NCBI GenBank assembly: GCA_965221895.1
Contig: CBDCSX010000002.1
Span: 1,595,366 to 1,659,365 of the forward strand
Direction: 5' to 3'
Source of the DNA: Dehalococcoidia bacterium
GTDB taxonomy: Bacteria; Chloroflexota; Dehalococcoidia; Lucifugimonadales; GCA-2712585
DNA length: 64,000 nucleotides
Positions within the stretch are counted from its first letter, which is position 1. Every line of letters starts with the position of its first letter. Both the position numbers and the translations under genes were made by a program. Below, piece by piece: positions 481-63,974 of the stretch. The notes under the pieces were generated by a model. The model had not been told where the DNA came from and did not search any database. It saw only the letters and a program-made list of their open reading frames with translations.

Positions 481-504
481 GCTTTCACCCCCATCCTGGC
501 CTTC

Positions 505-570
505 CCCCTCAAGGGGGGAGGGCGGTTCGCGAACCGCCCCTACAAAGAGGGGGGGCGGGCGGAAGGGGTT
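505..570. repeat. REP-like element: a 20-bp perfect palindrome GGGCGGTTCGCGAACCGCCC (524-543) flanked by G/C runs. It is copy 1 of 3 in the window.
   Basis: The same palindrome plus a 'cctacMagaGGGGGGG' tail recurs at ~38199-38232 and ~39009-39040. Confidence 0.7.
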
Positions 571-3386: not shown

Positions 3387-3398
3387 CCTATCACCTCT

Positions 3399-5900: not shown

Positions 5901-5938
5901 CCCAAAAAGATAGGGGCCGGTTTGAAACCGGCCCCTAT
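5901..5938 (-). terminator. Rho-independent terminator for glnII (minus strand), also usable from the plus strand
   Basis: Perfect hairpin 'ataggggccgg-tttgaaa-ccggcccctat' followed on the minus strand by TCTTTTTGGG. Confidence 0.65.
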
Positions 5939-5965
5939 TGAATGGCTCTGAATGTCTAGGCGGGA

Positions 5966-19425: not shown

Positions 19426-20637
19426 TTACGATATCTGATACTTGCCAATGGCGTTGAAATCTATCTGTACCCAAGCCTCTGCCCGCTTTTCAAAGACAAC
19501 CTTGATGAATCCCAATTCTCCCAATCTATTGAGTTCTCTTATGATGGTTCGGACAGTCACTTCTCGATAGGCGGCTCTCACGAAGGCAGATTCCAACGCC
19601 TCGTGTAGAGCGACTTTACGGGACGGACTCTCATCAAACGGGTCTTCCGGCTCCGTCTCATCCAAGAGAAATTGCAACAGTTGAACTTCCCTATCGTTCA
19701 ACAAACGACGTCGAGGGCTGACCTTTCTGTTGTGACTGGCCACCAGCATTTGCCTATACATTACCCTGTTTAGCTTGGTCTTGACGAAGTTGTTTATGCC
19801 CATAAGTTCTTCCAAGAACCCCTCTACACCAAACTGTATGAAGGCAGTCACGTTCATCTTGGGCGCCGTACGTCTGGCCTCATTCAGGCGAACCCTATAC
19901 CTGTCCGCGTTCCTGTAAAAGAAGTTGGACAACCCATAGAATCCGTGCACGTTGTACCCGTGTTGGAACAGTATTCCGGCCTCCAGTAGCCTGGAAACCC
20001 TGCCGTTGCCGTCACCAAAAGGATGAATGGTCACTAAGAAAAAGTGCGCCAGCAGGGCTTGAATAACCGGCATCTCAGATGGCAATCTTCCGGAGTTCAG
20101 GAAGGACACGAATTCTTCCATCATCCGGGGCAAGTCGTTGTGAGACGCGCCCCAATGAATCCCGCCGAGATCCGGTGCACCCACCCTAACGGGATTATTC
20201 CGCAGCGCGCCGGGCACGTTATCTTTCTCGTCCGAACCCTGGGTAAGCAGCCTATGCATCGTCAGGATGTCGCCCATGCTCACTGGCGACGAACCCGGGG
20301 CGAACCGGTCTTTGACCCAGTCCTGCCCTCTGGCAGCATTGGCTATCTGCGTTATCTCGCGTGACTTATCCGTTGGCGACACGGCCGCCTCCCGTTCGAT
20401 CCGCTCTATTTGCACCTGAACTTCGGTCTCCGACAGAGGGTTGCCTTCAATGGCCGTCGTCCCATGGACGGCCCGCACCTTATTCAACCTGTCCAGTTGC
20501 TTAACCCATTCTGGGGCTAGGACCAAGTGGCTCGCCGACTGTCTATGGGCCTCAATGCTAATCACCGTATTGAATAATGCGCTGCCCTCCAAGTAGTAAT
20601 CAAAGCCAAACCGTTCCCAGAAATTCTTCGAGTCCAA
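19426..20637 (-). CDS. Fic/DOC family protein (AMPylation-type) with a C-terminal winged-helix-like extension
   Basis: Fic motif 'HPFGDGNGRVSRLL'. The locus is lower in GC. Confidence 0.8.
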   Translation of the reverse strand: MDSKNFWERFGFDYYLEGSALFNTVISIEAHRQSASHLVLAPEWVKQLDRLNKVRAVHGTTAIEGNPLSETEVQVQIERIEREAAVSPTDKSREITQIANAARGQDWVKDRFAPGSSPVSMGDILTMHRLLTQGSDEKDNVPGALRNNPVRVGAPDLGGIHWGASHNDLPRMMEEFVSFLNSGRLPSEMPVIQALLAHFFLVTIHPFGDGNGRVSRLLEAGILFQHGYNVHGFYGLSNFFYRNADRYRVRLNEARRTAPKMNVTAFIQFGVEGFLEELMGINNFVKTKLNRVMYRQMLVASHNRKVSPRRRLLNDREVQLLQFLLDETEPEDPFDESPSRKVALHEALESAFVRAAYREVTVRTIIRELNRLGELGFIKVVFEKRAEAWVQIDFNAIGKYQIS

Positions 20638-33448: not shown

Positions 33449-33652
33449 ATGGTACGCACCAACGTAGATATCGACGATCGGGCGTGCGCCGAGGTGATGC
33501 GGCGATATCAGCTATCCACCAAGCGCGAGGCGGTCAATTTTGCCCTCCGCACCCTGGCTGCGGAGTCCCTATCCTTAGCTGAGGCCCGCAACCTCCGCGG
33601 CATCGGCTGGGAGGGCGACCTGGACGTAATGCGGTCTTCATCCTCGCCGTGA
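33449..33652 (+). CDS. vapB: VapB-family antitoxin
   Basis: 'MVRTNVDIDDRACAEVMRRYQLSTKREAVNFALRTLAAE' with a 4-bp overlap onto the PIN gene. Confidence 0.75.
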   Translation: MVRTNVDIDDRACAEVMRRYQLSTKREAVNFALRTLAAESLSLAEARNLRGIGWEGDLDVMRSSSSP

Positions 33653-34044
33653 TTCTGGTCGACTCCTCAGCCTGGATAGAGTTTCTTCGAGACACGGGAT
33701 CTACGGTCTGCGAGGCGGTGGACCGGTTGCTAGGACAGGAGGTGGCCGTCTGCGACGTCATTAGCATGGAGATCCTCGCCGGCGCTCGTGACGAATCGCA
33801 CTTGGCAAGCCTACGACGCCTGCTAGCCAGGGCCGCCATGATCCGTACGAGGCCAACGGACTATGAAGACGCTGCTGCGCTCTATCGTCGCTGCCGCCGG
33901 GGAGGAGAGACCGTTCGCAAGCTGGTCGACTGTCTCATCGCCTCGGTAGCCATACGCGCTGGTGTGGCCGTTCTGCACCAGGATGCTGATTTCGACACCC
34001 TAGCCCGTCATACGAAACTGCAAGTGCACCAATCCAATCCTTAA
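33649..34044 (+). CDS. vapC: VapC PIN-domain toxin
   Basis: 'MILVDSSAWIEFLRDTGS...CDVISMEILAGAR...DCLIASVAIRAGVAVLHQDADF' PIN acidic residues. Confidence 0.8.
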   Translation: MILVDSSAWIEFLRDTGSTVCEAVDRLLGQEVAVCDVISMEILAGARDESHLASLRRLLARAAMIRTRPTDYEDAAALYRRCRRGGETVRKLVDCLIASVAIRAGVAVLHQDADFDTLARHTKLQVHQSNP

Positions 34045-36573: not shown

Positions 36574-36607
36574 CAGTAAGGGCAGGTCTAAAACCTGCCC
36601 TTACTGG
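36574..36607. terminator. Bidirectional terminator hairpin between the amidohydrolase gene (+) and the MFS gene (-)
   Basis: 14-bp perfect stem 'ccagtaagggcagg'/'cctgcccttactgg' with a tctaaaa loop. Confidence 0.55.
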
Positions 36608-36618
36608 ACCTGCCCTTG

Positions 36619-37836
36619 CTATTGCTTTCGCCTTCGGGATAATTGGGATCGGGGGCCTGTCTCCGGCACCATCAGCCCCACCACCAGCAGGCCCCAGGAA
36701 AGCACCGCCCACAGCATGAAGCCGGGGACGAACGACCCCAGCCAGTCCGTCATGAACCCTACCGACATGGGGCCTACGATGGCAATCCCGCTGGCCACGG
36801 CGAACATCGTCGCCCATGCCACCGCCACCTGTCCTTCCGACAAGCCCTTCATCTCCATAGGAATTGTCATCAACACGGGCAGATAGATAAAGCTGGCGAC
36901 GCCCAATGCAACAATCGCGACGTATATGACCGCTTCGTTCTGGAAGAGGAAGCAACCCATCCCCGCCAGGCCCACCACTGCGCCTGGAATCACCAGGAAG
37001 GGCTTTCGCACCCCCAATCGCGCACTAAGAAACCCGCCCGTCAGCGACGCCACGACTCCCACTATAGAAATCAGGCCCACTACCGAGCCCGCCTTCGTGA
37101 GCGACATTCCAAAGACCTCGTTGTAGTAGGTGGGAAGCCAGGTTGTCAACGCCAGATTCTGGGCGAATGCCGCGCCGTCGGCCAGCCCCAGCAGCAGTAT
37201 CGTCTTGGAGCGAACAGACCTCGCCATTTCGCGGATGGACACCCTTCGCATCTTCCCTTCTGCGGCGGGCGGCGGCACCCTGCCAAAGGCCACCCAAACC
37301 GCCCCAACCACCAGCATCGCCGCCCCGAAAACCATAAGCGTCGACTGCCATCCAATGGCCGAAGACAACGGCCCGGAGGCGAAGGTACCTATGCCAATGC
37401 CCAGGATGAAGAAGGTCATGTGCAGGCTGTTCATCAGCGGCAGCTCCCTCGCGCTGAACCAGCGCATGAGGATGGGCGCCGTAGCCGGCATGATTAGCAC
37501 GAAGGCCAGAGCGTGCACCAGTCGCAGCGAAAGCAGGACTAAGAAGTGGTCCGCCAGGAAAGTTAGGCCCATGGCGGCGGCAACCACGCATCCGATAGCG
37601 AATACGAGCTTCAGGGGCGCCTTGGCGACCAAAATGCCCCCGGGTATGACGAACAAGGCTTGCGTTATCAGCACGCCGGACATGAGGAAGCTGGCGGCCC
37701 CACGGCTAACCTGGTACTCATCGATGATGAGGGGCATGATGGGGGTTACGACGGAGAAGTTGGCGGAATAGAAAAGATTAAAAAGCAGGATTATCCCTGC
37801 TATGACGAATCGATATCGGCTCTTCTTTGGGTCCAA
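36619..37836 (-). CDS. MFS transporter
   Basis: 12-TM hydrophobicity pattern. The other five ORFs on this interval are antisense or frame artefacts. Confidence 0.7.
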   Translation of the reverse strand: MDPKKSRYRFVIAGIILLFNLFYSANFSVVTPIMPLIIDEYQVSRGAASFLMSGVLITQALFVIPGGILVAKAPLKLVFAIGCVVAAAMGLTFLADHFLVLLSLRLVHALAFVLIMPATAPILMRWFSARELPLMNSLHMTFFILGIGIGTFASGPLSSAIGWQSTLMVFGAAMLVVGAVWVAFGRVPPPAAEGKMRRVSIREMARSVRSKTILLLGLADGAAFAQNLALTTWLPTYYNEVFGMSLTKAGSVVGLISIVGVVASLTGGFLSARLGVRKPFLVIPGAVVGLAGMGCFLFQNEAVIYVAIVALGVASFIYLPVLMTIPMEMKGLSEGQVAVAWATMFAVASGIAIVGPMSVGFMTDWLGSFVPGFMLWAVLSWGLLVVGLMVPETGPRSQLSRRRKQ

Positions 37837-37960
37837 CTTATTTCCAATGGAGGCGCACCCTTCGTGCTTTCTGCCGTAGGGGGAGACTATCTTAGACGGG
37901 TTGGGTGGAGTTTGTCATTCCGAAGGGGCACCGGAAGGAGAAGGGGAGGGCGGGTTTCAA

Positions 37961-38131
37961 GAGCCTGTTTCAGAAGTAGCAACCAAGTCATTGAGCTCGT
38001 TCGTTCACAACGGCATAAGGCGGAAACAGCATATCTACTAGTCGTATATCGCAGCATTTGTGGATATGGTTACGCCTGTCGTCACGCCCTTTTGCCGCGG
38101 ACAGACGCGCGGGAACTTTTGAAACAGGCTC
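37961..38131. mobile_element. MITE copy 3 (171 bp) with 17-22-bp terminal inverted repeats GAGCCTGTTTCAGAAGT / ACTTTTGAAACAGGCTC
   Basis: TIRs read directly. There is no ORF, and the element belongs to the same family as the copies at 50956-51125 and 51534-51705. Confidence 0.65.
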
Positions 38132-38135
38132 TTCA

Positions 38136-38240
38136 AACCAGCGCCTACGGGTGGGGGTCTTGCCATCGGATAAACCGTCTACGCAATAGGCGGGAAAAGG
38201 GCGGTTCGCGAACCACGCCTACCAGATGGGGGGCAATATC
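38136..38240. repeat. Left ~105-bp direct repeat flanking brnTA; contains the REP-like palindrome
   Basis: ~88% identical to 38942-39050. Confidence 0.7.
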
Positions 38241-38320
38241 ATCGTGCGTATCCGGACAAACATTGACTTTTGGTATGTCCTGTAACTACAACTTTGTAAT
38301 ATGGTGAAGGGCGACTGTAT

Positions 38321-38611
38321 TTGCGTTGGACTTGGAACCAGGCCGAGGATCGGGGGAATCTTGGAGCACACGGCCTCGACTTCAATGCAGCAGCGCTTGT
38401 GTTTGACGATCCTATGTCTGCGACGCGGGAAGACCCATATCCACATGAGCAAAGGTGGCGAACAATGGGCGTGTTAGGAAATCAAGTCTTAATGGTAGTC
38501 CACACATGGCCCGCCTTTGACGAAGAGACTGGCGAAGCTATCGGCCGCATCATCTCCGCACGCAAGGCGACGAGTTATGAAAGGATGGCTTATGAAGAAG
38601 GACTTGACTGA
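38321..38611 (+). CDS. brnT: BrnT toxin (RelE-like ribonuclease, DUF497)
   Basis: 'FDDPMSATREDPYPHEQRWRTMGVLGNQVLMVVHTW....RIISARKATSYERMAYEE'. Confidence 0.75.
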   Translation: MRWTWNQAEDRGNLGAHGLDFNAAALVFDDPMSATREDPYPHEQRWRTMGVLGNQVLMVVHTWPAFDEETGEAIGRIISARKATSYERMAYEEGLD

Positions 38612-38882
38612 GTTGCCGTCAGACGTTCAAGCGCAGTTACGGGACTTAGAAGCTCTGCCGGACGACCAGATTGATACAACCGACGCCCCAGAGATTCTCG
38701 ACTGGACCGATGCCAGGCGCGGGGTGTTCTACCGGCCTATAAAGCAACAGATTACGCTAAGGCTCGATGCAGACGTCATAGCCTGGTTCAAGGCCCATGC
38801 TCGTAACGGTCGTGGGTATCAAACAAACATCAATGGAGCGCTTCGCGCGCACGTACAGCGGTCGGCTCGTTCGGTAAGGTAA
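38592..38882 (+). CDS. brnA: BrnA antitoxin. The start was moved to the ATG at 38592, which follows an AAGGA RBS and overlaps the brnT end.
   Basis: C-terminal 'ITLRLDADVIAWFKAHARNGRGYQTNINGALRAHV' BrnA/CopG-like region. Confidence 0.7.
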   Translation: MKKDLTELPSDVQAQLRDLEALPDDQIDTTDAPEILDWTDARRGVFYRPIKQQITLRLDADVIAWFKAHARNGRGYQTNINGALRAHVQRSARSVR

Positions 38883-38941
38883 TCTTGACCGTCGTGTCGA
38901 GCCACCGGTCGCCATGGAACTTGCGGAGATGGCGGGTTTGA

Positions 38942-39050
38942 AACCAGCCCCCTACGGGTGGGGGTCTTGCCATCGGATAAACCGCCTACGCAATAGACGG
39001 GGAAAGGGCGGTTCGCGAACCGCCCCTACCAGAGGGGGGGGTAATATCGT
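38942..39050. repeat. Right ~105-bp direct repeat flanking brnTA, preceded by a degenerate MITE-TIR-like 'gggtttgaaaccagcc'
   Basis: Alignment to 38136-38240. The palindrome GGGCGGTTCGCGAACCGCCC is perfect here. Confidence 0.7.
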
Positions 39051-39163
39051 CCGATTCTCCGTGAGCGGTCTTGTCTAGTCTGGACACCAACCCCAAAAGA
39101 CTGTAGTTTTTTATGGGCGCTTCTAAACATCGGCGCGCCAGTCCCAACCTCCAAGGAGCTAAG

Positions 39164-41767
39164 ATGACCCAGTCCTCTCCCTACCGACTGCCCCCCAACG
39201 TCCGGCCTACGGCCTACAGGCTGACGCTGACGCCGGACCTGGAAAACTTCACCTTCACCGGCCAGGTGTCCATAGATCTGCAGGTTTCCGAATCCACGGG
39301 ACGAATCCTGCTCAACGCCGCCGAGCTTGAAATAACCTCCGCTAGCATCACGGACGCATACGGCGGGCCCATGCCCGCGTCCGGGATTCTCCTAGACGAA
39401 AAGCGGGAGCGGGCCTACCTGACGTTTCCCAGGGAGATCGCTACGGGCAGGGCAACCCTGTCGATGGAATTTTCCGGCATCCTCAACGACCAGCTAAGGG
39501 GCTTCTATCGGTGCCGTTACACGGACGCAGACGGGGCCGACCGCAACATGGCCGCCACGCAGTTCGAGGCCACTGACGCCCGCCGAGCCTTCCCCTGCTG
39601 GGACGAGCCTGCCGCCAAGGCCACCTTCGAGCTTACCCTCCGCATCCCGTCGGAGCTAACGGCAGTATCGAACACCATGCCCGAGGCGGAGACGCCCGCC
39701 AAGGAGGGCACGAAAGAAATCCTTTTCGCCCCAACGCCAAAGATGTCTACATACCTGCTGGCCTTCATCGTTGGAGACCTTGCCGCCGTGGAAGAACGCG
39801 CGGCCAACGGCACCCTCGTGCGCATCTGGGCCACCCGCGGCAAGGAGGAGCAGGGCCGCTTCGCCCTCGAAACCGCCGTAGACCTACTGACCTATCTGGA
39901 CTTCTACTTCGGCATTCCCTACCCCCTAGAGAAGCTGGACCACCTCGCCCTGCCGGACTTTGCCGCCGGCGCAATGGAGAACTGGGGGGCTATTACGTAC
40001 CGGGAGATCGCCCTCCTCTTCGATCCGGCTAACTCCGCCGCCAACACCCGCCAGCGCATTGCCGAAATCGTTGCCCACGAGATGGCCCACATGTGGTTCG
40101 GCGACCTGGTTACTATGGAGTGGTGGGACGACCTCTGGCTCAACGAGAGCTTCGCCTCCTGGATGGGCAACAAGGCCGTGGACCACATCCGCCCGGAATG
40201 GGACATGTGGACGCAGTTCGTCTACCAGGACACCAACGGCGGATTGAGCCTTGACGGTTTGAAGAACTCTCATCCCATCGAGATGCAGGTTGCAAATCCG
40301 GCTGAGATTGGCGAGCTTTTCGACGCGATCAGCTACAACAAGGGCGGTGCAGTGCTCCGGATGCTGGAGGATTTTCTGGGCGAGGAGACTTTCCGCCAGG
40401 GCATTCACCACTACCTCAAGAGCCATCAGTACGGCAACGCCCGCACGGAAGACCTGTGGGCCAGCCTGGAGTCTGTTTCCGGCAAGCCCATCACGGCCAT
40501 CATGAACACCTGGGTCAAGCAGGCCGGCTATCCCGTCGTGACGGTGGAGGAATCCACCGACGCCTACATCGGAGGCCCTGTCCTATCGCTCACGCAAAGC
40601 CGCTTCCTCTACGACCGTCTGATGAGTCCGGAGGACGAAGACGCCTCCCTATGGCAGGCGCCCGTAAGCATCCAACAGGCCGGCGTGCACTCCAAGGTCG
40701 CCGCCCTCATGGTGGGCAGCACTCTGAATGTGCCCCTTGATTCAGCCGACGACGCAGGCTGGGTCAAGGTCAACGCCGGCCAAACGGGCTTCTACCGCGT
40801 CAACTACGACGCCGACCAGTGGAAGCGTCTGGGAGAAGCCGTCGGCTCCATGGAACTGCCGGCCACTGACCGGCTTGGCCTACAGAACGACGCCTACGCC
40901 CTGATGCGCGCCGGCTCTCTATCCCCCGCCACCTTCCTTGCCTTGGCGGAAAACTACCGCGGCGAGACCCACGTTTCCGTGTGGAGCGACCTGGCCTCCA
41001 ACCTCGGCTCCTTCGACAACCTCATTGGCAGCCAGCCCTACTACGACCGGTTCCGGCCCTTCGCCCAAGATATTTTTAGAAAGGCCGCCCAACGGATAGG
41101 CTGGGAGCCTCAGCCCGACGAAGGACACCTGGACACGCTGCTGCGGACCACCATGCTGGGGCAGCTGGGCACATACGGCGACGAAGCGACGATTCAGGAA
41201 GCGCGGGCCCGCTTCGACCGTTTCCTGGAGCGGCCCGAATCGCTGTCCCCCGACCTGCGGGGAATGGTCATCGCACTGACGGCCCAGGCGGGCGACGGGG
41301 ACACCTTCGACACCCTCCTCCAGTTGGAGGATGCGGCGGACCTACAGGAAGAGAAGATGCGCCTACTGCGCGCCCTTACTCGTTTCCAGCGGGGAGACCT
41401 GCTCCAGAAGACCCTGGAGCTAACCCTCAGCCCAAGAGTACGAACCCAGGACAGCGTGTCGCTGGTTATCGGCGTGGCCGTTAACCGAATTGGCGGGGAC
41501 ATGGCCTGGGAGTTCATCAAGAACAACTGGGACGAGTTCAACCGACGTTACGGCGCGGGCGGATTCGCCATCATGCACCTCGTCAGTATCATCGGGCGGT
41601 TCACCACCCTGGAGCACGCCGACGACGTGGAGGCGTTCTTCGCCGAGCATCCGGCGCCGGGAGCACAGAGGACCATCCAACAGGCCCTGGAGCGCATCCG
41701 AATCAACGCCCGGTGGCTGGAGGTTCGGGGAGCGGAGGCCGGTGAATGGCTGAGCGCGCGGAGTTAA
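39164..41767 (+). CDS. pepN: Aminopeptidase N (M1 family)
   Basis: 'GAMENWG' and 'HEMAHMWFGD' (HExxH-18-E). The start was set at MTQSSPY with an AGGAG RBS. Confidence 0.9.
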   Translation: MTQSSPYRLPPNVRPTAYRLTLTPDLENFTFTGQVSIDLQVSESTGRILLNAAELEITSASITDAYGGPMPASGILLDEKRERAYLTFPREIATGRATLSMEFSGILNDQLRGFYRCRYTDADGADRNMAATQFEATDARRAFPCWDEPAAKATFELTLRIPSELTAVSNTMPEAETPAKEGTKEILFAPTPKMSTYLLAFIVGDLAAVEERAANGTLVRIWATRGKEEQGRFALETAVDLLTYLDFYFGIPYPLEKLDHLALPDFAAGAMENWGAITYREIALLFDPANSAANTRQRIAEIVAHEMAHMWFGDLVTMEWWDDLWLNESFASWMGNKAVDHIRPEWDMWTQFVYQDTNGGLSLDGLKNSHPIEMQVANPAEIGELFDAISYNKGGAVLRMLEDFLGEETFRQGIHHYLKSHQYGNARTEDLWASLESVSGKPITAIMNTWVKQAGYPVVTVEESTDAYIGGPVLSLTQSRFLYDRLMSPEDEDASLWQAPVSIQQAGVHSKVAALMVGSTLNVPLDSADDAGWVKVNAGQTGFYRVNYDADQWKRLGEAVGSMELPATDRLGLQNDAYALMRAGSLSPATFLALAENYRGETHVSVWSDLASNLGSFDNLIGSQPYYDRFRPFAQDIFRKAAQRIGWEPQPDEGHLDTLLRTTMLGQLGTYGDEATIQEARARFDRFLERPESLSPDLRGMVIALTAQAGDGDTFDTLLQLEDAADLQEEKMRLLRALTRFQRGDLLQKTLELTLSPRVRTQDSVSLVIGVAVNRIGGDMAWEFIKNNWDEFNRRYGAGGFAIMHLVSIIGRFTTLEHADDVEAFFAEHPAPGAQRTIQQALERIRINARWLEVRGAEAGEWLSARS

Positions 41768-43436: not shown

Positions 43437-44339
43437 TCACCCTCCGTAATAGCTCCTAATTCCATCTATTAACACCTTTGGAGCCGTTGCGAGGCTGATC
43501 TTCCATGCTCCAGATGCCGCCTTTTCTATCATTTTCCCTACCCAAGCCTGAACTTTCGGTCCAAATTGACCTTGAGAAGGATCCTGCTCAGTAGCAACTA
43601 TTCTTTTGAGTTCACTCAGGTCATTCTCATCGACCTTATGGCCAGCCAAGTGATTTACAAGCGATGCAATGTCACCCTTGCGAATGGGATTAGCTTGTTG
43701 TTGTACGTTTTCTCCGCTGGCTACGATGTTGTGGTCGCCATGGATATTGATGTTGAAAAGGTTCCTCACCGTCTCTTGCTTCACTTCGCCACTCTTCAGG
43801 TTTTCCGACGTGACATTGTTCTCCTGCAGGCCAAGTATGAAATCTAACAGCTTGTTCTTCACCTTATCCAGAATTCCAGCGATGTGTGAGGGGAGAATCG
43901 GCTGGTGTGCATTTACTAAAATCATGCCATCTGTCATTTGTGTTGCATCTCTAGCCAACATCACGAATTCTACAGGCCATTCCCTCTTATATTTCCCGTC
44001 CCCCTGGTTTAGCATAGCTTCAAGCTCTCCCACACCCTGGGAAAGGACCAATTTCTCAGCGAATTCCTTTACCGGGCTAGGTAGACTTTGCGTAGGAAGT
44101 GGTACCTTCCTTGCCATCGTCTGGAAGGAGCCACTGAAAGTGCCAAGATTGAGAGGGCGAGAACCTCTGTAGTTAGGCACTTTTTTCAAATCTGGGTAGC
44201 CATTGAGTTCAGAGTCAACCCATTCCCGAAATTCAGGTAACCCCAAATCGTTGGCGAGTATCTTCGCCTTCCTTAGGGTATTCGAGACACTCGCTGATTC
44301 ATCAATCAAGTCAGAGCGAATATTGTCGATTAGAGCCAT
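43437..44339 (-). CDS. AbiTii-like abortive-infection domain protein; the islet is lower in GC
   Basis: N-terminal 'LIDNIRSDLIDESASVSNTLRKAKILANDLGLPEFREWVDSELNGY' resembles the AbiTii N-terminal domain. Confidence 0.5.
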   Translation of the reverse strand: MALIDNIRSDLIDESASVSNTLRKAKILANDLGLPEFREWVDSELNGYPDLKKVPNYRGSRPLNLGTFSGSFQTMARKVPLPTQSLPSPVKEFAEKLVLSQGVGELEAMLNQGDGKYKREWPVEFVMLARDATQMTDGMILVNAHQPILPSHIAGILDKVKNKLLDFILGLQENNVTSENLKSGEVKQETVRNLFNINIHGDHNIVASGENVQQQANPIRKGDIASLVNHLAGHKVDENDLSELKRIVATEQDPSQGQFGPKVQAWVGKMIEKAASGAWKISLATAPKVLIDGIRSYYGG

Positions 44340-44526: not shown

Positions 44527-46278
44527 ATGACTAACGCTTACTCGGTTAAGTTTGAGCCGCATATCCCCCTGACCCTCGGAGACGGGACCATGTCCTACGT
44601 GGACGTGTTCCGGCCCGACGCTCCCGGTCGTTTTCCCGCCCTTCTCCAGCGCACGCCCTACGACAAGGGAGGGCCCGGCAGCCGCTCCGGACCCGTCGAC
44701 GCCATTCGGGGGGCCATGAACGGCTACGCCGTCGTCATCCAGGACGTTCGCGGTCGGCATAGTTCGGACGGCGAGTTCTACACCTTCGTCAACGAATCCG
44801 ACGACGGATATCACTCCGTGGAGTGGGTAGCGTCCCAGCCCTGGTGCAACGGCAAGGTGGGCATGTACGGCGTGTCCTACGTGGGCGCAACCCAGTGGCT
44901 CGCGGCCAAGGCAAAGCCCCCATCTCTGACGGCCATCGTCCCCGGCGTCACCGCCTCCGATTACCACGAAGGTTGGGCCTGGCAGGGCGGCGCCTTTGAG
45001 CTTGGCTTCAACCTTTCCTGGGCCGTCGGCCCCCTGACCGCCGCCAACTGGGGCAACCTCTCCAAACGTCTGGGCCTCCCCCAGCAGCAGCTGAACGACG
45101 TCATTCACGCCAAGGACAATCTGACCGACGGATTCCTGCACATGCCCTTGGAGGAAGTGCCTGACCTGAAGGGCGGCCTGGCTCCCTACTACTACGACTG
45201 GCTGGCCCATCCGGAGTTCGACGACTACTGGAAGAGCGTCTGCATCGCCGAGTCCCACTCCGACATCGACGTGCCCGCGCTCAACTGGGGCGGGTGGTAC
45301 GACGTGTTCCTCGGCGGCACAATCGACAACTACGTGGGGATGCGCCGACGAGGGGCGACGGAGGCCGCCCGCAAGGGTCAGCGCCTGCTCATCGGACCGT
45401 GGATTCACGGCAACTCGCCCGTTGACGTTTCGGGCCAGTTCCACTTCGGCACCCGCGCATCTTCTGCAGTCCTCGACCTGCCCGGGATCATCCTCCGCTA
45501 CTACGACCACTGGCTCAAGGGAGAGGACAACGGAGTGGCTGACGAAAAGCCGGTGCGCATCTTCGTCATGGGAGAAAACAGGTGGCGGATGGAGGATTCG
45601 TGGCCCCTGGAGCGGGCGGTGACCACCAACTTCTACCTGCATAGCGGCGGGAGGGCTAACACCCTGAACGGCGACGGGTCGCTGAGCGTGGACGCGCCGG
45701 GCAACGAGCCGCCGGACGTGTACGCCTACAACCCCCTGGACCCGGCCCCGACTCGAGGCGGCGGCCTGTGCTGCGACCCCGCATTCATGATGTCGGGCGC
45801 CTACGACCAGCGGCCTATCGAGGCTCGCCCCGACGTTCTGGTGTACAGCACGCCGGAACTTGAACGAGACACGGAAGTCACCGGCCCCGTGACGGTCACT
45901 CTGTACGCCGCCAGCTCCGCCGTGGACACGGACTTCACCGGCAAGCTGGTGGACGTTGAGCCCTGCGGCTGCGCCCGAAATCTAACCGACGGCATCATAC
46001 GCGCCAGATATCGTAAGCCGCGACAGCCTGCGAGCCTCATCCAACCCGGTGAAGTCTACGAGTACGCCATCGACGTCTGGGCCACCAGCAACGTGTTCAA
46101 GAAGGGACACCGGATTCGGTTGGAGATTTCCAGCAGCAACTTCCCCCGGTTCGACCGGAACGCCAACACCGGCGGGGACATAGGCGCGGGGACGCGGCTG
46201 GTTCCGGCTTTGCAGACAGTGTTCCACGACGGGGAGTATCCGTCGCACGTGAGCCTGCCGCTGGTGCCGAGGGGGTGA
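44527..46278 (+). CDS. CocE/NonD family hydrolase (S15 X-Pro dipeptidyl-peptidase fold)
   Basis: 'ALLQRTPYDKG', 'GVSYVGATQW' (GxSxxG), and a C-terminal beta-sandwich domain. Confidence 0.8.
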   Translation: MTNAYSVKFEPHIPLTLGDGTMSYVDVFRPDAPGRFPALLQRTPYDKGGPGSRSGPVDAIRGAMNGYAVVIQDVRGRHSSDGEFYTFVNESDDGYHSVEWVASQPWCNGKVGMYGVSYVGATQWLAAKAKPPSLTAIVPGVTASDYHEGWAWQGGAFELGFNLSWAVGPLTAANWGNLSKRLGLPQQQLNDVIHAKDNLTDGFLHMPLEEVPDLKGGLAPYYYDWLAHPEFDDYWKSVCIAESHSDIDVPALNWGGWYDVFLGGTIDNYVGMRRRGATEAARKGQRLLIGPWIHGNSPVDVSGQFHFGTRASSAVLDLPGIILRYYDHWLKGEDNGVADEKPVRIFVMGENRWRMEDSWPLERAVTTNFYLHSGGRANTLNGDGSLSVDAPGNEPPDVYAYNPLDPAPTRGGGLCCDPAFMMSGAYDQRPIEARPDVLVYSTPELERDTEVTGPVTVTLYAASSAVDTDFTGKLVDVEPCGCARNLTDGIIRARYRKPRQPASLIQPGEVYEYAIDVWATSNVFKKGHRIRLEISSSNFPRFDRNANTGGDIGAGTRLVPALQTVFHDGEYPSHVSLPLVPRG

Positions 46279-46319
46279 TTGCCCGACCTCTCGTTTAACT
46301 TGCCTTCAGGCCAACATTT

Positions 46320-47576
46320 GTGCGAAACTACCGAGCTATGAGCAGCGACTTCATAAAGCGGAAATCTCTCGTATTTGTCCTCGCGGCGGTGGTGGTGGGG
46401 CTTGTGGCTTTTGTGGGGGCGTGCGTGCTTGTGTATGAAACCGGGTGGTTGAGCAACGAGGAATACGACTGGAGGGAGGAAGTGACAGGCTCGCGCCCTT
46501 TTGTTCCCCCTCAGTGGTCTTCTGACGGCACGAAGATGATAATAGATTGGTGGGAGATCCCCTACCTAGTTGACACTGGTCCTGACCCACCAATGCTCAA
46601 GCGAATAGTCGCAGGAAATTACCAGGAACGCTTCTATCCCCGCATTTCTCCAGACGGATTGCGGATAGTCTTCTCAACGGAGCGACACGCGAGTTACGGA
46701 CTTATGAGGGAGATTGGAGTCTCCAACCTTGACGGGTCTGAATATCGACGACTAACCAGAAATAGATATTTTCAATCAGCCCCGGCGTGGTCTCCCGACG
46801 GCTCCCACATCGCCTTGTTCTCCAAACCTCAAAGTGACGAGGAAACCTACTACAGATTTCAAAGCTTATATGTGATTTCAGCCAGAGGCTCCAGCCCACA
46901 GAAACTTGTTGAGTGGGTTCGGGCTTTCGGCCCTCCTGTCTGGTCTCCCGATGGCCGCAAGATTGCATTATTGAGCCGCCCAAGAGCAACATCGGGTGAC
47001 GGCATTATCTACGTTATCGACCGAGACGGATCTAACGCGATCAAAATTCCTGGGGCTTCCAGCCAACCAGCCTGGTCTCCCGACGGAAGCTCTATAGCTT
47101 TTCTGCGTGGAGAAAAACGCGAATCCCTACATGTCGTCAACCCGGACGGTTCCGGGTTGCGGAAGCTAGTCGATTTGGACCCCGACACTTTACTAAGACG
47201 GAACTGGTATCCGGAACTTTATTTGTCTTGGTCTCCGGACGGTTCGGAGATCTTACTGCGGGACTACCCTTTCATTTTGGTCAAAGCCGATGGTACGGAT
47301 TACCCTGAGGGAGAATCACCATACGCCGTATTTGCCGATTCGCAAGATTGGCGCAGAGCCTACGCCTCCTGGTCTCCGGACGGCTCAAGAATTGCCATCA
47401 CTGTAGAGCGAATGGGTGAATTCGGGCCCATTGCTGGCGATGCCGTTCTCCTCACCATGGCGCGAGACGGGTCAGACAAGCGGGTGCTGGTAAGGCACGG
47501 CCATGAATACAGACCCTATGCCGTTCCCAATGAGCCGTGGGAGGGAGAAGGGGAATGGGTGTGGCATTCTCCGTAG
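46320..47576 (+). CDS. TolB-like (PD40/WD40-like beta-propeller) lipoprotein, paralog 1
   Basis: Lipobox 'AFVGAC' and repeated 'WSPDGS.IAF' blocks. Ends '...VPNEPWEGEGEWVWHSP'. Confidence 0.7.
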   Translation: MRNYRAMSSDFIKRKSLVFVLAAVVVGLVAFVGACVLVYETGWLSNEEYDWREEVTGSRPFVPPQWSSDGTKMIIDWWEIPYLVDTGPDPPMLKRIVAGNYQERFYPRISPDGLRIVFSTERHASYGLMREIGVSNLDGSEYRRLTRNRYFQSAPAWSPDGSHIALFSKPQSDEETYYRFQSLYVISARGSSPQKLVEWVRAFGPPVWSPDGRKIALLSRPRATSGDGIIYVIDRDGSNAIKIPGASSQPAWSPDGSSIAFLRGEKRESLHVVNPDGSGLRKLVDLDPDTLLRRNWYPELYLSWSPDGSEILLRDYPFILVKADGTDYPEGESPYAVFADSQDWRRAYASWSPDGSRIAITVERMGEFGPIAGDAVLLTMARDGSDKRVLVRHGHEYRPYAVPNEPWEGEGEWVWHSP

Positions 47577-47585
47577 GGGGGAATC

Positions 47586-47709
47586 AGCCCCGGTTCGACC
47601 GAAACGCCAACACGGGAGGGGGGACGCGGCTGGTTCTCGCGCTGCAGACCGTGTTCCACGACGCGGAATACCCCTCCCACGTAAGCCTTCCCCTGGTGCC
47701 TAGGGACTA
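47586..47709 (+). pseudogene. Orphan copy of the cocE 3' end (corresponding to 46143-46278), with an in-frame 12-nt deletion and a TAA stop in the homologous position
   Basis: Would encode 'PRFDRNANTGGGTRLVLALQTVFHDAEYPSHVSLPLVPRD*', compared with cocE 'PRFDRNANTGGDIGAGTRLVPALQTVFHDGEYPSHVSLPLVPRG*'. Most of the nucleotide differences are synonymous. Confidence 0.75.
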
Positions 47710-47798
47710 ACTGAATACATACATCCGCAAGTCATCGGCTTTTGACTTGCCGTTTCGCAACGCTTGTGCGAAACTAACCATCGATAGGCGGTGGTTTC

Positions 47799-49016
47799 GT
47801 GCAACGGAAATACATTGTAGTCGTCCTGGCGTCGGTTATGGTGGGGCTTGCGGCTTTTGTGGGAGCGTGCGCGCTTGTTTATGAAACCGGGTGGTTGAGC
47901 AGTGACGATGATGTAGGATACCCTGTTGGATCTCCTCCCCTCCTGCCTCCCATATGGTCTCCTGACGGCACAAAGATAGTATTGGACTGGTGGTCAGGGT
48001 CGTACCTGGTTGAAGCAAGATACGATGGCGTAGAACTCACTAGAATCTACGTGGAAAATGAATGGGAGAGGATTTATCCCCATATCTCCCCAGACGGCTC
48101 ACGGATAGCCTTCTCAACAGGGCGGAACTCGTTTGATGTATATGACTCTGATATTCGGCTTACCGACTTAGACGGGGGCAATTATCGATATCTGACCAGA
48201 AGCAGGGGTAATCAATTTGGTCAAAGGTGGGCACCCGACGGCTCAAGAATCGCCTTTATCTCATGTCTTCGCGTTCGCAAAGATGCGGTCGAGAGGACCT
48301 GTAGCCTATACAGCATAGCTGCCAACGGTTCCGGGCCCCGCAAGCTTGTTGACTCGGTGCAAGCTACCGGGGGCATCGCCTGGTCTCCTGATGGAAGGAC
48401 GATCGCATTCTTCGGCCATGAACGGGACCAGTTAGGCGAATGGCCGAAGGCCCATTTCATATACATCGTAGACGGCGATGGTTCAAATTTGGCCAGGCTT
48501 GCAGAAGCTTCTAGTCTACCGACCTGGTCCCCTGACGGAAGCTCTATTGCTTTTCTGCAGGGAGACACCAGAGACGCATTGTTCGTCGTCGAGCCGGACG
48601 GCACCGGGTTGCGGAAAATTGCCGTTCTAGATTCCATACCAGAACGGTCTTGGTTCCCAAGAACATACTTGTCGTGGTCTCCAAATGGTTCGGAGATTCT
48701 GCTGCAGGATTATCCCTTCATCTTGGTCAAGGCGGATGGCACGGAATACCCGGAGGGGAAAGCGCCTTATGCGGTTTTTGTCGACTCAGAAGATTGGGAA
48801 CATGCCTACGCGTCCTGGGCTCCGGACGGTTCAAGGATTGCCATCACTGTCCAGCAGGCCGGCGGAAACGACCCAGATGACAGAGAAGCCTTTCTCCTCA
48901 CCATGGCGCGAGACGGGTCAGACAAGCGTGCTATGGTAAGGATCGACGAACGTGTCTATGCCGTGCCCAATGAGCCGTGGGAGGGAGGGGGCGAGTGGGT
49001 GTGGCATTCGCCGTAG
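47799..49016 (+). CDS. TolB-like (PD40) lipoprotein, paralog 2
   Basis: ~60-65% identical to paralog 1, with N- and C-termini nearly identical. Confidence 0.7.
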   Translation: MQRKYIVVVLASVMVGLAAFVGACALVYETGWLSSDDDVGYPVGSPPLLPPIWSPDGTKIVLDWWSGSYLVEARYDGVELTRIYVENEWERIYPHISPDGSRIAFSTGRNSFDVYDSDIRLTDLDGGNYRYLTRSRGNQFGQRWAPDGSRIAFISCLRVRKDAVERTCSLYSIAANGSGPRKLVDSVQATGGIAWSPDGRTIAFFGHERDQLGEWPKAHFIYIVDGDGSNLARLAEASSLPTWSPDGSSIAFLQGDTRDALFVVEPDGTGLRKIAVLDSIPERSWFPRTYLSWSPNGSEILLQDYPFILVKADGTEYPEGKAPYAVFVDSEDWEHAYASWAPDGSRIAITVQQAGGNDPDDREAFLLTMARDGSDKRAMVRIDERVYAVPNEPWEGGGEWVWHSP

Positions 49017-49020
49017 GGGG

Positions 49021-49105
49021 AATCAACCACGCTTCGAGGTGAACGCCGACATGGGCGGGAACATGGGCGGGGAGACGCGGCTGGTACGAACGCTTGCAGT
49101 CCTGG
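49021..49105 (+). pseudogene. A second, more diverged orphan fragment of a cocE-like 3' end
   Basis: 'cgcttcgaggtgaacgccgacatgggcgggaacatgggcggggagacgcggctggtacgaacgcttgcag' is ~75% identical to cocE 46148-46225 and retains the 12 nt that the 47586-47709 copy lacks. Confidence 0.55.
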
Positions 49106-50955: not shown

Positions 50956-51125
50956 GAGCCTGTTTCAGAAGTCGGATCTCTCCGTGAATTGGACCTTCTG
51001 GATTCCGGCTTTCGCCGGAATGACGGATCTTGGGGCCATATTCCATGTTCCCCGTCGGGGAGTCGTAGAAAATCGTCTTAACATGCTTAGCATATATCAT
51101 GGGTGAGGACTTATGAAACAGGCTC
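50956..51125. mobile_element. MITE copy 1 (170 bp)
   Basis: TIRs GAGCCTGTTTCAGAAGT...ACTTATGAAACAGGCTC. The first ~85 bp are identical to copy 2. Confidence 0.65.
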
Positions 51126-51533: not shown

Positions 51534-51705
51534 GAGCCTGTTTCAGAAGTCGGATCTCTCCGTGAATTGGACCTTCTGGATTCCGGCCTTCGCCGGAATG
51601 ACGGGATTAGAGGCCATATTACCAAATATAGAATTAGAATCAGCGTCGATAATTGTCTTGCCACGCTTAACATAAACCATAGGTTAGGACTTCTGAAACG
51701 GTCTC
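51534..51705. mobile_element. MITE copy 2 (172 bp)
   Basis: TIRs GAGCCTGTTTCAGAAGT...ACTTCTGAAACGGTCTC. Confidence 0.65.
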
Positions 51706-63263: not shown

Positions 63264-63974
63264 CTAAGGCACAATTTCACATATGAATTCGATTGCATCT
63301 TCGACTCTTGTCTTAATTGCAATTAGTTGAGGTAGCGAGAATCTTCCCGCTGGGCCATGCGCACCAGAGTTAAGGTCTTTGAACAAGACAGACAGATTCT
63401 TGATGTTTGCCTCGGTAAAATCCTCAAGGGCTTCATTGCCTAGTCCGCGGCGATCCAAACAATAATGTATTTTGGCACGTCGAGTAGGCATACCACGCTC
63501 AGTAACTTGACAGTCTGGAAACCATGACAACACCTCGCCGTCGGGAGCTCCGCAATTGAGAATATCCGCGAGGATTTCCCTTGAGCTTGTACAAAAATGC
63601 CGGGCAGCATCCGGGTTATGAGGGTTCAGAGCAAATAGGGCACCGGACCAGCGATCCTGTATGTCTACAGGATAACCCTTTAGCGATTCCGTTAACTTCG
63701 TACTAGTAAGTTCTTCATCTCCCAACTGTACTTGGCTGTTGTATCCAAGCAACGTGTTGAGCACATTCGCGCTGTTGGCAGTGTCTCGTTCAGCGAGGTC
63801 TGAGAGAAATGGATTCGCATTACTATGGTCTAGTCGTTCATACGCAGAGTTGAGAGCAATAACAGACAAATGCGACGAGGTATAGCTGATGGGGATTGTT
63901 CGAGAAGAAAGACTCTTTAGGGCGGATCGTAGTCGGGATCTGTTGGCCCTGACGCGTGCATTGTGTGCCCGCAC
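63264..63974 (-). CDS. Hypothetical protein upstream of the TIR-like gene on the same strand. It may extend beyond the window edge.
   Basis: ORF only; lower GC. Confidence 0.3.
   Translation of the reverse strand: MRAHNARVRANRSRLRSALKSLSSRTIPISYTSSHLSVIALNSAYERLDHSNANPFLSDLAERDTANSANVLNTLLGYNSQVQLGDEELTSTKLTESLKGYPVDIQDRWSGALFALNPHNPDAARHFCTSSREILADILNCGAPDGEVLSWFPDCQVTERGMPTRRAKIHYCLDRRGLGNEALEDFTEANIKNLSVLFKDLNSGAHGPAGRFSLPQLIAIKTRVEDAIEFICEIVP

What the first reader, a model, noticed from the sequence alone, without database searches (positions are those of the whole stretch)
38136..39050. brnTA toxin-antitoxin pair framed by ~105-bp direct repeats that carry a REP-like perfect palindrome
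The repeats 38136-38240 and 38942-39050 are ~88% identical, and each contains GGGCGGTTCGCGAACCGC(C/A)C followed by a G-run. The same palindrome plus tail occurs at 524-570 next to the minisatellite. The left repeat directly follows a complete MITE, and the right repeat follows a degenerate MITE-end ('gggtttgaaaccagcc'). The brnTA pair therefore appears to have been inserted between, or carried by, two copies of a composite MITE+REP unit. This is a possible mechanism for TA mobility in this genome.
Basis: seen in the sequence. Interest (0 to 1): 0.55.

Follow-up and report, generated by a model that had tools for sequence, protein, structure and literature searches.

The report
REP-cluster duplicate flanking a resident brnTA
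A brnT/brnA toxin-antitoxin pair in a Dehalococcoidia genome is bracketed by two copies of a ~124-nt cluster of ordinary GTAG-type REP hairpins, but related genomes show a vertically inherited, decaying locus, not a vehicle that moves the toxin genes.

Summary
brnT (38321-38611) and brnA (38592-38882) lie between two direct repeats that are 89% identical. The unit is longer than reported, about 124 nt: R2 is 38928-39051, and R1 is 37946-37960 plus 38137-38243.

R1 does not follow a MITE. It is split by one. A 171-bp MITE (37961-38131) with a 5-bp TTCAA duplication sits in the loop of R1's first hairpin. Seven related genomes have the uninterrupted site. The supposed degenerate MITE end beside R2 is that intact hairpin.

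Each unit holds two GTAG/CTAC-tagged REP palindromes, which I call REP-A and REP3, plus a middle hairpin, all in one orientation. REP-A and REP3 each occur elsewhere. REP3 is in at least 120 metagenome contigs. The composite is locus-specific. Its core matched one of 185,579 reference genomes, at this same locus, and nothing in JGI metagenomes or IMG/VR.

Eight genus-level relatives carry R1-brnTA-R2 in vertical descent, with signs of gene conversion between the copies and repeated brnT decay. A sister-clade genome has brnTA at the same site without repeats, and another lineage has brnTA elsewhere without them. No excised or single-repeat state was seen.

Verdict: a locally duplicated REP cluster around a resident toxin-antitoxin pair. 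Mobilisation by the repeats is not supported.

The parts
36619..37836 (-). MFS transporter gene, the left neighbour, transcribed away from brnT
   Evidence: PF07690, E = 5.6e-39. Syntenic in L011, L012, L016, L017 and L138-L140.
37946..37960 (+). R1, left fragment (GAGGGCGGGTTTCAA): the left arm of the REP-A hairpin, including the left TSD copy TTCAA at 37956-37960
   Evidence: Homologous to R2 38928-38942 (D5). Contiguous with the rest of R1 in L011, L012, L138-L140, L015 and L016.
37961..38131 (.). 171-bp MITE inserted in the REP-A loop of R1. The 17-nt TIR is GAGCCTGTTTCAGAAGT (16/17 complementary).
   Evidence: BLAST of L011 joins window 37960 to 38132 with a 5-nt overlap, which is the TSD. 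Empty sites in 7 related genomes. TIRs shown.
38132..38243 (+). R1, right fragment. It holds the right TSD copy (38132-38136), the right arm of REP-A plus CTAC, the middle hairpin hp2 (38175-38193), a degenerate REP3 (38199-38218) plus CTAC (38219-22), and the CAGA and G-run tail.
   Evidence: nhmmer score 115.6.
38255..38320 (+). Conserved brnT upstream region with a TTGACT motif at 38263-38268. It is part of the brnTA unit shared with relatives.
   Evidence: Homology with L014 starts at 38255 and with L001-L010 at 38278. No consensus promoter was called.
38321..38611 (+). brnT toxin gene (96 aa, TTG start)
   Evidence: PF04365 BrnT_toxin, E = 6.5e-19, full profile.
38592..38882 (+). brnA antitoxin gene (96 aa), overlapping brnT by 20 nt
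   Evidence: PF14384, E = 1.3e-14. The exact protein belongs to a 173-member 90%-identity cluster.
38928..39051 (+). R2, an intact 124-nt unit. It holds REP-A (38931-38949) plus CCCTAC, hp2 (38982-39000), a perfect REP3 (39006-39025) plus CTAC (39026-29), and the CAGA and G-run tail.
   Evidence: nhmmer score 127.1.
39164..41767 (+). M1 aminopeptidase (PepN-like) gene, the right neighbour
   Evidence: PF01433, PF11838 and PF17900. The exact protein is on a 2,851,146-bp contig.
520..555 (+). Solitary REP3 plus CTAC and an AAAGA G-run tail at an unrelated locus
   Evidence: D12.
5912..5941 (.). Solitary REP-A variant (TAGGGGCCGGTTTGAAACCGGCCCCTAT)
36575..36608 (.). Solitary REP-A variant (GTAAGGGCAGGTCTAAAACCTGCCCTTAC) between the convergent amidohydrolase and MFS genes
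50956..51125 (.). Second MITE copy (170 bp), at the apex of a palindrome that ends in CCCTAT, CAGA and a G-run
51534..51705 (.). Third MITE copy (172 bp), 79% identical to the second. Its right flank ends in GGGTCGCCCCTAC.

Best explanation
R1 and R2 are two paralogous copies of a non-coding cluster of GTAG-type REP hairpins. Each copy reads: REP-A plus CTAC, a linker, a small middle hairpin, then REP3 plus CTAC, CAGA and a G-run, all in one orientation.

The cluster was duplicated locally in the MFS-pepN intergenic region of a genus-level Dehalococcoidia lineage. It now brackets a resident brnT-brnA operon that has its own upstream region. The arrangement has been inherited vertically ever since.

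The two copies are 807 bp apart and occasionally exchange sequence by gene conversion, which keeps them 75-90% alike. The toxin-antitoxin pair between them decays like an ordinary chromosomal toxin-antitoxin locus.

The repeats do not move brnTA. They are passive or structural REP DNA, and they also attract insertions. In the window's lineage a 171-bp MITE landed in the loop of R1's first hairpin.

Shown here: the anatomy, the dispersal of the two REP modules, the locus-specificity of the composite, vertical inheritance, the MITE insertion, and the decay of brnT.

Inferred: how the duplication arose (reiteration of a REP cluster together with flanking DNA, or template switching seeded on the REP hairpins) and any RNA-level role of the hairpins (stabilising 3' ends or insulating transcription units).
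For: 1. GTAG/CTAC-tagged GC-rich palindromes are visible in the sequence. REP3 is present in at least 120 JGI metagenome contigs with unrelated flanks. REP-A is also at window 5915 and 36579, in relatives and in unrelated contigs, with compensatory stem variants.
2. An nhmmer profile of 12 R copies finds full-length matches only at R1 and R2 positions in 0.93 Mb of held sequence. The 21-mer core matches 1 of 185,579 species genomes, twice, 806 bp apart, at the orthologous locus. A degenerate core pattern gives 0 hits in JGI metagenomes and IMG/VR.
3. L011, L012, L138, L139 and L140 have R1-brnTA-R2. L016 has both copies in diverged form. L015 has R1 only. R1 copies cluster with R1 copies across genomes and R2 with R2. 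brnTA nucleotide identity tracks pepN identity: 95 vs 96, 88 vs 93, 82 vs 86, 78 vs 82.
4. Polymorphisms shared between the paralogs point to gene conversion: TCTTGCC versus TCTCAAC occurs in both the R1 and R2 sets, and the right-hand end of R1-R2 similarity varies between genomes.
5. L014, in the sister clade on the PepN tree, has brnTA between the same landmarks without R. L001-L010 have brnTA at 80-82% nucleotide identity to the window, in defence islands and without R or REPs.
6. brnT decays: a TGG-to-TAG stop in L139 and L140, a deletion in L015 and L016, and a 1-kb insertion in brnA in L012.
7. Published precedent: REP clusters are reiterated with flanking DNA (PMC3733652); IS elements target REPs (PMC3184786, PMC1525189); the chromosomal ccdO157 toxin-antitoxin system decays in a REP-containing variable intergenic region (PMC3184786).
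Against: - The duplication event itself was not reconstructed. No genome with a single R between MFS and pepN was found, so the order of events (brnTA first or R first) rests on one sister-clade genome (L014).
- Orthology of the L014 brnTA is only weakly supported. Clade A brnTA is closer to the L001 group (82-86%) than to L014 (77-80%). On gain/loss counts, two independent gains are as cheap as one gain plus losses.
- REP copy number in the source genome could not be measured, because only 64 kb is available.
- No RAYT was found among 58 window ORFs.
- The REPs in R are head-to-tail, an arrangement reported as rare for REP dimers (PMC3733652).
- Covariation within the R copies is modest: 3 pairs changed on both sides and 88% of cells paired.
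- No terminator-like site was predicted in R, so the proposed RNA role is unproven.
Confidence: 0.62

Rival explanations
1. Campbell-type cassette. A circular molecule carrying one R copy plus brnTA integrated into a resident R between MFS and pepN, by homologous or site-specific recombination. That produced R1-brnTA-R2, and the same repeats could excise the cassette again. Under this reading R acts as a portable attachment site for toxin-antitoxin mobility.
For: - Direct repeats of about 124 nt bracket a compact 684-bp segment that contains a self-sufficient toxin-antitoxin operon.
- brnTA is evidently mobile over evolutionary time: copies at 80-82% nucleotide identity to the window sit in unrelated contexts.
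- The MFS-pepN spacer varies among relatives.
- Gain/loss counting does not exclude an independent gain in clade A.
Against: - R occurs nowhere else: not in 185,579 reference genomes, JGI metagenomes, IMG/VR or 0.93 Mb of held loci.
- No brnTA copy outside this locus is associated with R.
- No single-R or empty state was seen in eight clade A genomes, or in L017 and L013.
- The paralogs have diverged deeply in L016 (48%), so the event, if it happened, was ancient and single.
- No integrase or RAYT is nearby.
Confidence: 0.12
2. Two independent insertions of a mobile composite REP element. A RAYT-mobilised, REPIN-like unit of about 124 nt hopped locally into both intergenic spacers next to a brnTA that was already there.
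For: - The REP modules carry the GTAG/CTAC tag that RAYTs recognise (PMC3333891).
- L014 shows brnTA at the site without R, which fits a later arrival of R.
- REP-A-to-REP3 head-to-tail pairs recur in unrelated contigs (L132, L035).
Against: - Only two copies exist, both at one locus.
- R lacks the REPIN architecture of two inverted REPs forming a long hairpin.
- No target duplication or consistent target sequence is seen at the R1 and R2 boundaries.
- No RAYT is in the window.
Confidence: 0.14
3. R is a selected cis-acting element, such as a structured RNA, a protein-binding site or an insulator. Both brnTA and pepN need one upstream, so it is maintained in two copies by selection, not by shared history.
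For: - Both copies lie in the same orientation just upstream of the next gene's conserved upstream region.
- The stretches TCGGATAAA and CTAYGCAAT and the REP3 stem are nearly invariant across 12 copies.
- 88% of stem cells pair, against 29-52% when the partners are slid.
Against: - There is no Rfam match, even at E <= 5.
- Folding z-scores are weak: -1.7 and -2.4 for R2, about 0 for R1.
- The hairpins accumulate mismatches. The REP-A stem is mismatched in 6 of 12 copies, and R2 is largely degenerate in L016.
- L015 lost R2 and L014 has neither copy, yet pepN and its upstream block are intact.
- The MITE splits R1 in the window.
Confidence: 0.1

Closest known systems
GTAG-type REP elements and REP clusters (Di Nocera et al. 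2013, PMC3733652; Ton-Hoang et al. 2012, PMC3333891; Nunvar et al. 2010, PMC2817692)
   Same: GC-rich palindromes of 8-10 bp with short loops, abutted by the unpaired tetranucleotide GTAG (CTAC on the other strand). They are extragenic and dispersed, with stem variants that keep complementarity. Different families sit together in clusters, and clusters are reiterated with flanking DNA. The family is reported in Chloroflexi.
   Different: In R the hairpins are head-to-tail, not in the alternating orientation of BIMEs or REPINs. The 124-nt composite exists in only two copies, at one locus. No RAYT was found in the 64-kb window. Genome-wide copy number is unknown.
ccdO157 toxin-antitoxin locus in the E. 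coli folA-apaH intergenic region (Mine et al. 2009, as summarised in PMC3184786)
   Same: A chromosomal type II toxin-antitoxin pair sits in a highly variable intergenic spacer between housekeeping genes. The spacer contains REP sequence in many strains, and the toxin-antitoxin genes are defective or absent in some lineages.
   Different: I know of no long direct repeats reported around ccdO157. The toxin-antitoxin family and the phylum also differ.
REP-targeting insertion sequences: IS1397/ISKpn1, IS621, ISPpu9 (PMC3184786, PMC1525189, PMC8450116)
   Same: The 171-bp MITE sits in the apical loop of a REP hairpin, with an empty site in relatives. All three window copies lie at the apex of GTAG-tagged palindromes.
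   Different: It is a non-autonomous element with no transposase and a 5-bp TSD. The autonomous partner and its IS family are unknown. A TSD is visible for only one of the three copies.
Integron gene cassettes with attC sites (toxin-antitoxin cassettes in chromosomal integrons)
   Same: Structured repeats of about 60-140 nt bracket a compact toxin-antitoxin module.
   Different: There are no RYYYAAC/GTTRRRY core sites and no overall imperfect-palindrome attC fold. There is no integrase and no array, only two copies. brnTA has its own upstream region.
BrnT/BrnA type II toxin-antitoxin system (Pfam PF04365/PF14384)
   Same: Toxin-first bicistron, overlapping genes, and both Pfam domains at full length.
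   Different: Nothing unusual in the genes themselves. TTG start for brnT.

Membership tests
GTAG-type REP (for REP3 and REP-A) | Unpaired GTAG (CTAC on the complement) directly abutting the foot of the stem | tested here: met
   REP3: GGGCGGTTCGCGAACCGCCC|CTAC at 39006-39029 and 520-543. It is mostly symmetric GTAGG...CCTAC in metagenome copies. REP-A: GGCGGGTTTGAAACCAGCC|CCCTAC.
GTAG-type REP (for REP3 and REP-A) | Short GC-rich palindrome (stem 5-13 bp, short loop) with stem variants that keep complementarity | tested here: met
   Perfect 10+10 palindrome. Variants: GGACGGTTCGGGAACCGTC (L016), GGGCGGCTCGCGAGCCGCCC (L017), GGACGGGTTTGAAACCCGTCC (L016), GAGCGGGTTTGAAACCCGCTC (L015) and GGCAGG..CCTGCC. 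88% of cells paired.
GTAG-type REP (for REP3 and REP-A) | Many dispersed extragenic copies within a genome | tested here: inconclusive
   In 64 kb there is one REP3 and there are two REP-A copies outside R. At least 120 metagenome contigs carry REP3. The whole source genome is not available.
GTAG-type REP (for REP3 and REP-A) | A cognate RAYT (Y1 transposase) in the genome | not testable with these tools
   None among 58 window ORFs scanned with Pfam, and none with a rough tblastn probe.
BIME / REPIN (for the R unit) | Two REPs in inverted orientation separated by a linker and able to form a long hairpin | tested here: not met
   All CTAC tags in R are on the + strand, so the hairpins are head-to-tail. 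No long hairpin appears in the folds.
MITE (for the R unit) | Terminal inverted repeats and a target-site duplication; multiple dispersed copies | tested here: not met
   No TIR and no TSD at the R boundaries. Two copies, at one locus only.
MITE (for 37961-38131) | TIRs, a TSD, no coding capacity, several copies, and an empty site in relatives | tested here: met
   17-nt TIR, 16/17 complementary. TTCAA TSD. 170-172 bp. Three copies. Empty sites in 7 genomes.
Integron attC | R''/R' core sites (RYYYAAC ... GTTRRRY) flanking an imperfect palindrome; an array; an integrase nearby | tested here: not met
   No such core sites in the R sequence. Two copies only. No integrase among the window ORFs.
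Composite or cassette mobile unit R-brnTA-R | The same unit at non-orthologous sites, or presence/absence polymorphism with a single-repeat scar | tested here: not met
   R is only at the orthologous locus. No single-R state was seen in the eight clade A relatives or in L013, L014 and L017. The sample is limited.
BrnTA type II toxin-antitoxin | BrnT_toxin and BrnA_antitoxin domains in adjacent genes with the toxin first | tested here: met
   PF04365 at 68.5 bits and PF14384 at 54.7 bits, both above their cut-offs. 20-nt overlap.

The most novel reading that the evidence does not exclude
R1-brnTA-R2 is, or once was, a REP-bounded cassette. A composite of GTAG-type REP hairpins serves as a portable recombination site, through RecA or a RAYT-like Y1 enzyme, that lets a toxin-antitoxin operon integrate into and excise from REP-bearing intergenic spacers. 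Gene conversion keeps the two ends matched.
Probability: 0.07. Interest if true: 0.6.

Novelty: new member of a known kind. Interest (0 to 1): 0.27.

Why it matters
If the repeats did mobilise brnTA, this would be a new route for toxin-antitoxin spread through the commonest class of bacterial intergenic repeats. The evidence points the other way. This is an example, in a poorly studied phylum, of REP clusters duplicating locally, exchanging sequence and attracting MITE insertions around a decaying chromosomal toxin-antitoxin pair.

Its practical value is threefold:
- It warns against reading repeat-cargo-repeat patterns as mobility.
- It documents REP-loop targeting by a MITE in Dehalococcoidia.
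- It flags two REP sequences that are unusually widespread across metagenomes.

Tried and rejected
- tRNA/tmRNA and Rfam, at gathering thresholds on the whole window and at E <= 5 on 37850-39170, found nothing. So R is not a tRNA-derived attachment site or a known RNA family.
- Promoter and terminator scans found no site inside R1 or R2.
- DNA folds of both strands of R1 and R2 give only modest z-scores.
- The look-up of encoding contigs for the window's own PepN and MFS proteins found nothing, so the source chromosome outside the window could not be read.
- The degenerate R-core pattern gave 0 hits in JGI metagenomes and IMG/VR.
- Pfam on 58 window ORFs found no transposase, integrase or Y1 enzyme.
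- The other toxin-antitoxin loci in the window (higBA, PIN) have no flanking repeats.
- The integron attC reading was rejected because the core sites are absent.
- The reading of the MITE as part of the repeat unit was rejected because relatives have empty sites.
Full report
**Observation**

The region holds a BrnT toxin gene (38321-38611; PF04365, E = 6.5e-19) and an overlapping BrnA antitoxin gene (38592-38882; PF14384, E = 1.3e-14). To the left is a divergently transcribed MFS transporter gene (36619-37836, minus strand). To the right is an M1 aminopeptidase gene (39164-41767).

Two direct repeats flank the pair. A 90-nt core is 93% identical (38144-38233 vs 38951-39040). A 34-mer is identical in both copies, with none expected in shuffles. 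The palindrome GGGCGGTTCGCGAACCGCCC is perfect at 39006 and at 520, and has two mismatches at 38199.

**Corrected anatomy**

The sequence left of the 'MITE' (37946-37960, GAGGGCGGGTTTCAA) is homologous to the start of the right repeat (38928-38942, GATGGCGGGTTTGAA) (D5). With the MITE and one TSD copy removed, R1 aligns to R2 (38928-39051) over 124 columns at 89.5%.

A scan of 185,579 species-representative genomes for a 21-mer from the repeat core found one genome, Dehalococcoidia MAG OZ253467.1 (L011). It has two hits 806 bp apart. L011 is collinear with the window at 92-94% identity. It joins window 37960 directly to 38132 with a 5-nt overlap. The site there reads GGGTTTCAAACACG, where the window has GGGTTTCAA-[171 bp]-TTCAAACCAG.

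So 37961-38131 is a MITE. Its 17-nt TIR is GAGCCTGTTTCAGAAGT (16/17 complementary) and its TSD is TTCAA. It inserted into the loop of the first hairpin of R1. The same empty site is seen in L012, L138, L139, L140, L015 and L016.

**What the unit is made of**

On the + strand each unit contains three elements, all in one orientation:
- REP-A: GGCGGGTTT-S-AAACCNGCC followed by CCCTAC.
- hp2: a small middle hairpin, CCGYCTA-CGCAA-TAGRCGG.
- REP3: GGGCGGTTCGCGAACCGCCC followed by CTAC, CAGA and a G-run.

On the minus strand REP-A and REP3 read GTAG plus a palindrome. That is the signature of GTAG-type REPs, a superfamily that includes Chloroflexi (PMC3733652; PMC3333891).

Both REP modules occur independently elsewhere:
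- REP3 is at window 520. These are mostly the symmetric form GTAGGGGCGGTTCGCGAACCGCCCCTAC, with unrelated flanks and 37-72% GC.
- REP-A variants are at window 5915 and 36579, at other sites in relatives, and in unrelated contigs. Their stems vary but stay complementary (GGCAGG..CCTGCC, GGCTGG..CCAGCC, GGCCGG..CCGGCC).
- REP-A-to-REP3 head-to-tail pairs recur in the unrelated contigs L132 and L035.

Across 12 R copies, 88% of stem cells pair, against 29-52% when the partners are slid. Only 3 pairs change on both sides, and several stems carry mismatches. The hairpins are real but are not under strong purifying selection in every copy.

There is no Rfam match, even at E <= 5, no tRNA, and no promoter- or terminator-like site inside R.

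**Is the composite widespread?**

No. The 21-mer core matches only the orthologous locus of one reference genome. A degenerate pattern that fits every full-length R copy then in hand gives 0 hits in JGI metagenomes and in IMG/VR. An nhmmer profile of 12 copies finds full-length matches only at R1 and R2 positions in 0.93 Mb of held sequence. Everything else matches only the REP-A or REP3 segment.

The flanking arrangement is not a copy-number accident.

**Comparative history**

A graded series of PepN orthologues gave the locus in other genomes.

Clade A (PepN at least 87% identical to the window's):

| Locus | State of the locus |
|---|---|
| window, L011, L138, L139, L140 | R1-brnTA-R2 |
| L012 | Same, plus a 1-kb TIR-bounded element carrying an RNase_T-domain ORF inserted in brnA |
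| L016 | R1, a deletion of brnT, a brnA remnant, and a degenerate R2 whose REP3 is still perfect |
| L015 | R1 and a truncated brnA. A creatininase gene replaces the rest, including R2 |

L139 and L140 also have an in-frame TGG-to-TAG stop in brnT.

R1 copies cluster with R1 copies across genomes, and R2 with R2. brnTA nucleotide identity tracks pepN identity. The duplication therefore predates the clade, and the locus is inherited vertically.

Polymorphisms shared between the paralogs indicate gene conversion between the two copies. TCTTGCC versus TCTCAAC occurs in both the R1 and R2 sets. The right-hand end of R1-R2 similarity also differs between genomes.

In the sister clade on the PepN tree:
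- L014 has brnTA between the same landmarks, CTTAGACGGG..GTTTGTCATT on the left and CTGGACAC..AAAAGACTGTAG on the right, but with no R on either side. An IS5-like transposase fragment lies upstream.
- L017 has MFS-pepN with a different REP cluster and no brnTA.
- L013 is rearranged.

A separate set of genomes (L001-L010) carries brnTA at 80-82% nucleotide identity to the window. There it sits at the edge of variable defence islands, with no R and no REPs. Homology to the window is limited to 38278-38881.

**Interpretation**

The best-supported reading is a locally duplicated REP cluster that brackets a resident, decaying brnTA. The copies are kept partly alike by gene conversion, and in this genome a MITE later hit one of them.

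What is shown:
- the anatomy of the unit;
- the dispersal of the two REP modules;
- the locus-specificity of the composite;
- vertical inheritance;
- the MITE insertion;
- the decay of brnT.

What is inferred:
- how the duplication arose. REP clusters are known to be reiterated with flanking DNA (PMC3733652);
- the order of events. 'brnTA first' rests mainly on L014;
- any RNA-level role of the hairpins.

The weak points:
- No single-R ancestor was found.
- Clade A brnTA is slightly closer to the L001 group (82-86%) than to L014 (77-80%), so an independent acquisition in clade A cannot be excluded.
- The source genome outside the window could not be read.

The rivals are Campbell-type cassette integration, two hops of a mobile composite, and a selected cis-element. 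Together they keep about a third of the probability.

**Known parallels**

- GTAG-type REPs and REP clusters (PMC3733652, PMC3333891, PMC2817692). R fails the BIME and REPIN definition because its hairpins are head-to-tail.
- IS elements that target REPs, such as IS1397, IS621 and ISPpu9 (PMC3184786, PMC1525189, PMC8450116). These are the precedent for the MITE. All three window copies of the MITE (37961-38131, 50956-51125, 51534-51705) sit at the apex of GTAG-tagged palindromes.
- The ccdO157 toxin-antitoxin locus in the variable, REP-containing folA-apaH spacer of E. coli (PMC3184786).

**Other checks**

No RAYT, transposase or integrase was found among 58 window ORFs. The other toxin-antitoxin loci in the window (higBA at 9467-10026 and PIN at 33649-34044) have no flanking repeats.

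**Verdict**

The MITE+REP composite and mobilisation of brnTA by the repeats are not supported. This is a new member of a known kind, of modest interest.

Noticed in passing
These contigs have 37-72% GC and unrelated flanks. That is unusually widespread for a REP, since REP families are normally lineage-specific. REP-A pairs with it head-to-tail in the unrelated contigs L132 (1766-1852) and L035 (about 590-655).
   Followed up: partly
window 37961-38131, 50956-51125, 51534-51705: A MITE family of 170-172 bp with the 17-nt TIR GAGCCTGTTTCAGAAGT. Each copy sits at the apex of a GTAG/CTAC-tagged palindrome. Only the first shows a clear TSD (TTCAA). Copies 2 and 3 are 79% identical, and copy 1 shares only the TIRs with them. 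The TIR was found in none of the other 140 held loci. No autonomous partner is in the window.
   Followed up: partly
L012 about 2576-3572: A roughly 1-kb element bounded by a perfect 14-bp TIR (GATTATCTACTTGA) with an approximately 8-bp target duplication. It carries only a 297-aa RNase_T/DEDDh exonuclease ORF and no transposase, and it is inserted inside brnA of a related genome.
   Followed up: partly
L014 about 2560-2975 (minus strand): An IS5-like transposase fragment lies directly upstream of the repeat-free brnTA copy. I recognised its N-terminal part by eye and did not scan it.
   Followed up: no
window 9467-10026, 33649-34044, 19426-20637, 43437-44339, 63264-63974: Other toxin-antitoxin and defence genes are scattered among housekeeping genes: a HigB-like toxin with an HTH antitoxin, a PIN-domain protein, Fic, AbiTii, and a pPIWI-associated nuclease at the window edge. 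The two toxin-antitoxin loci checked have no flanking direct repeats.
   Followed up: partly
window 33-482: A minisatellite of about 127-129-bp units (three copies, 74-92% identical). It is made of G-rich REP-like modules and lies immediately upstream of the solitary REP3 at 520.
   Followed up: no
L074 5623-6225: A 200-aa RAYT-like ORF with the HUH motif MPNHLHGII, in a metagenome contig that also carries REP3. Neighbouring ORFs repeatedly translate a different GTAG REP as ATRRVAPT, which suggests a REPtron.
   Followed up: no
L139 and L140 (brnT), L015 and L016: brnT is repeatedly inactivated in relatives, by a TGG-to-TAG stop in L139 and L140 and by a deletion from the upstream region to the brnA start in L015 and L016. 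brnA persists longer. Between the window and L011, BrnT is 85% identical in amino acids although brnTA as a whole is 95% identical in nucleotides.
   Followed up: partly
window 46144-49085: Tandem paralogous PD40/beta-propeller genes, seen as repeat spacings of about 1446 bp at 70-91% identity. This is a local gene duplication.
   Followed up: no
window 60754-62249: G-rich imperfect repeats with 12/18-nt periodicity, seen as 11 matches to a 40-nt reference copy. They overlap the minus-strand ORFs 59753-61306 (trypsin-like peptidase domain) and 61373-61711, and may encode a low-complexity linker.
   Followed up: no
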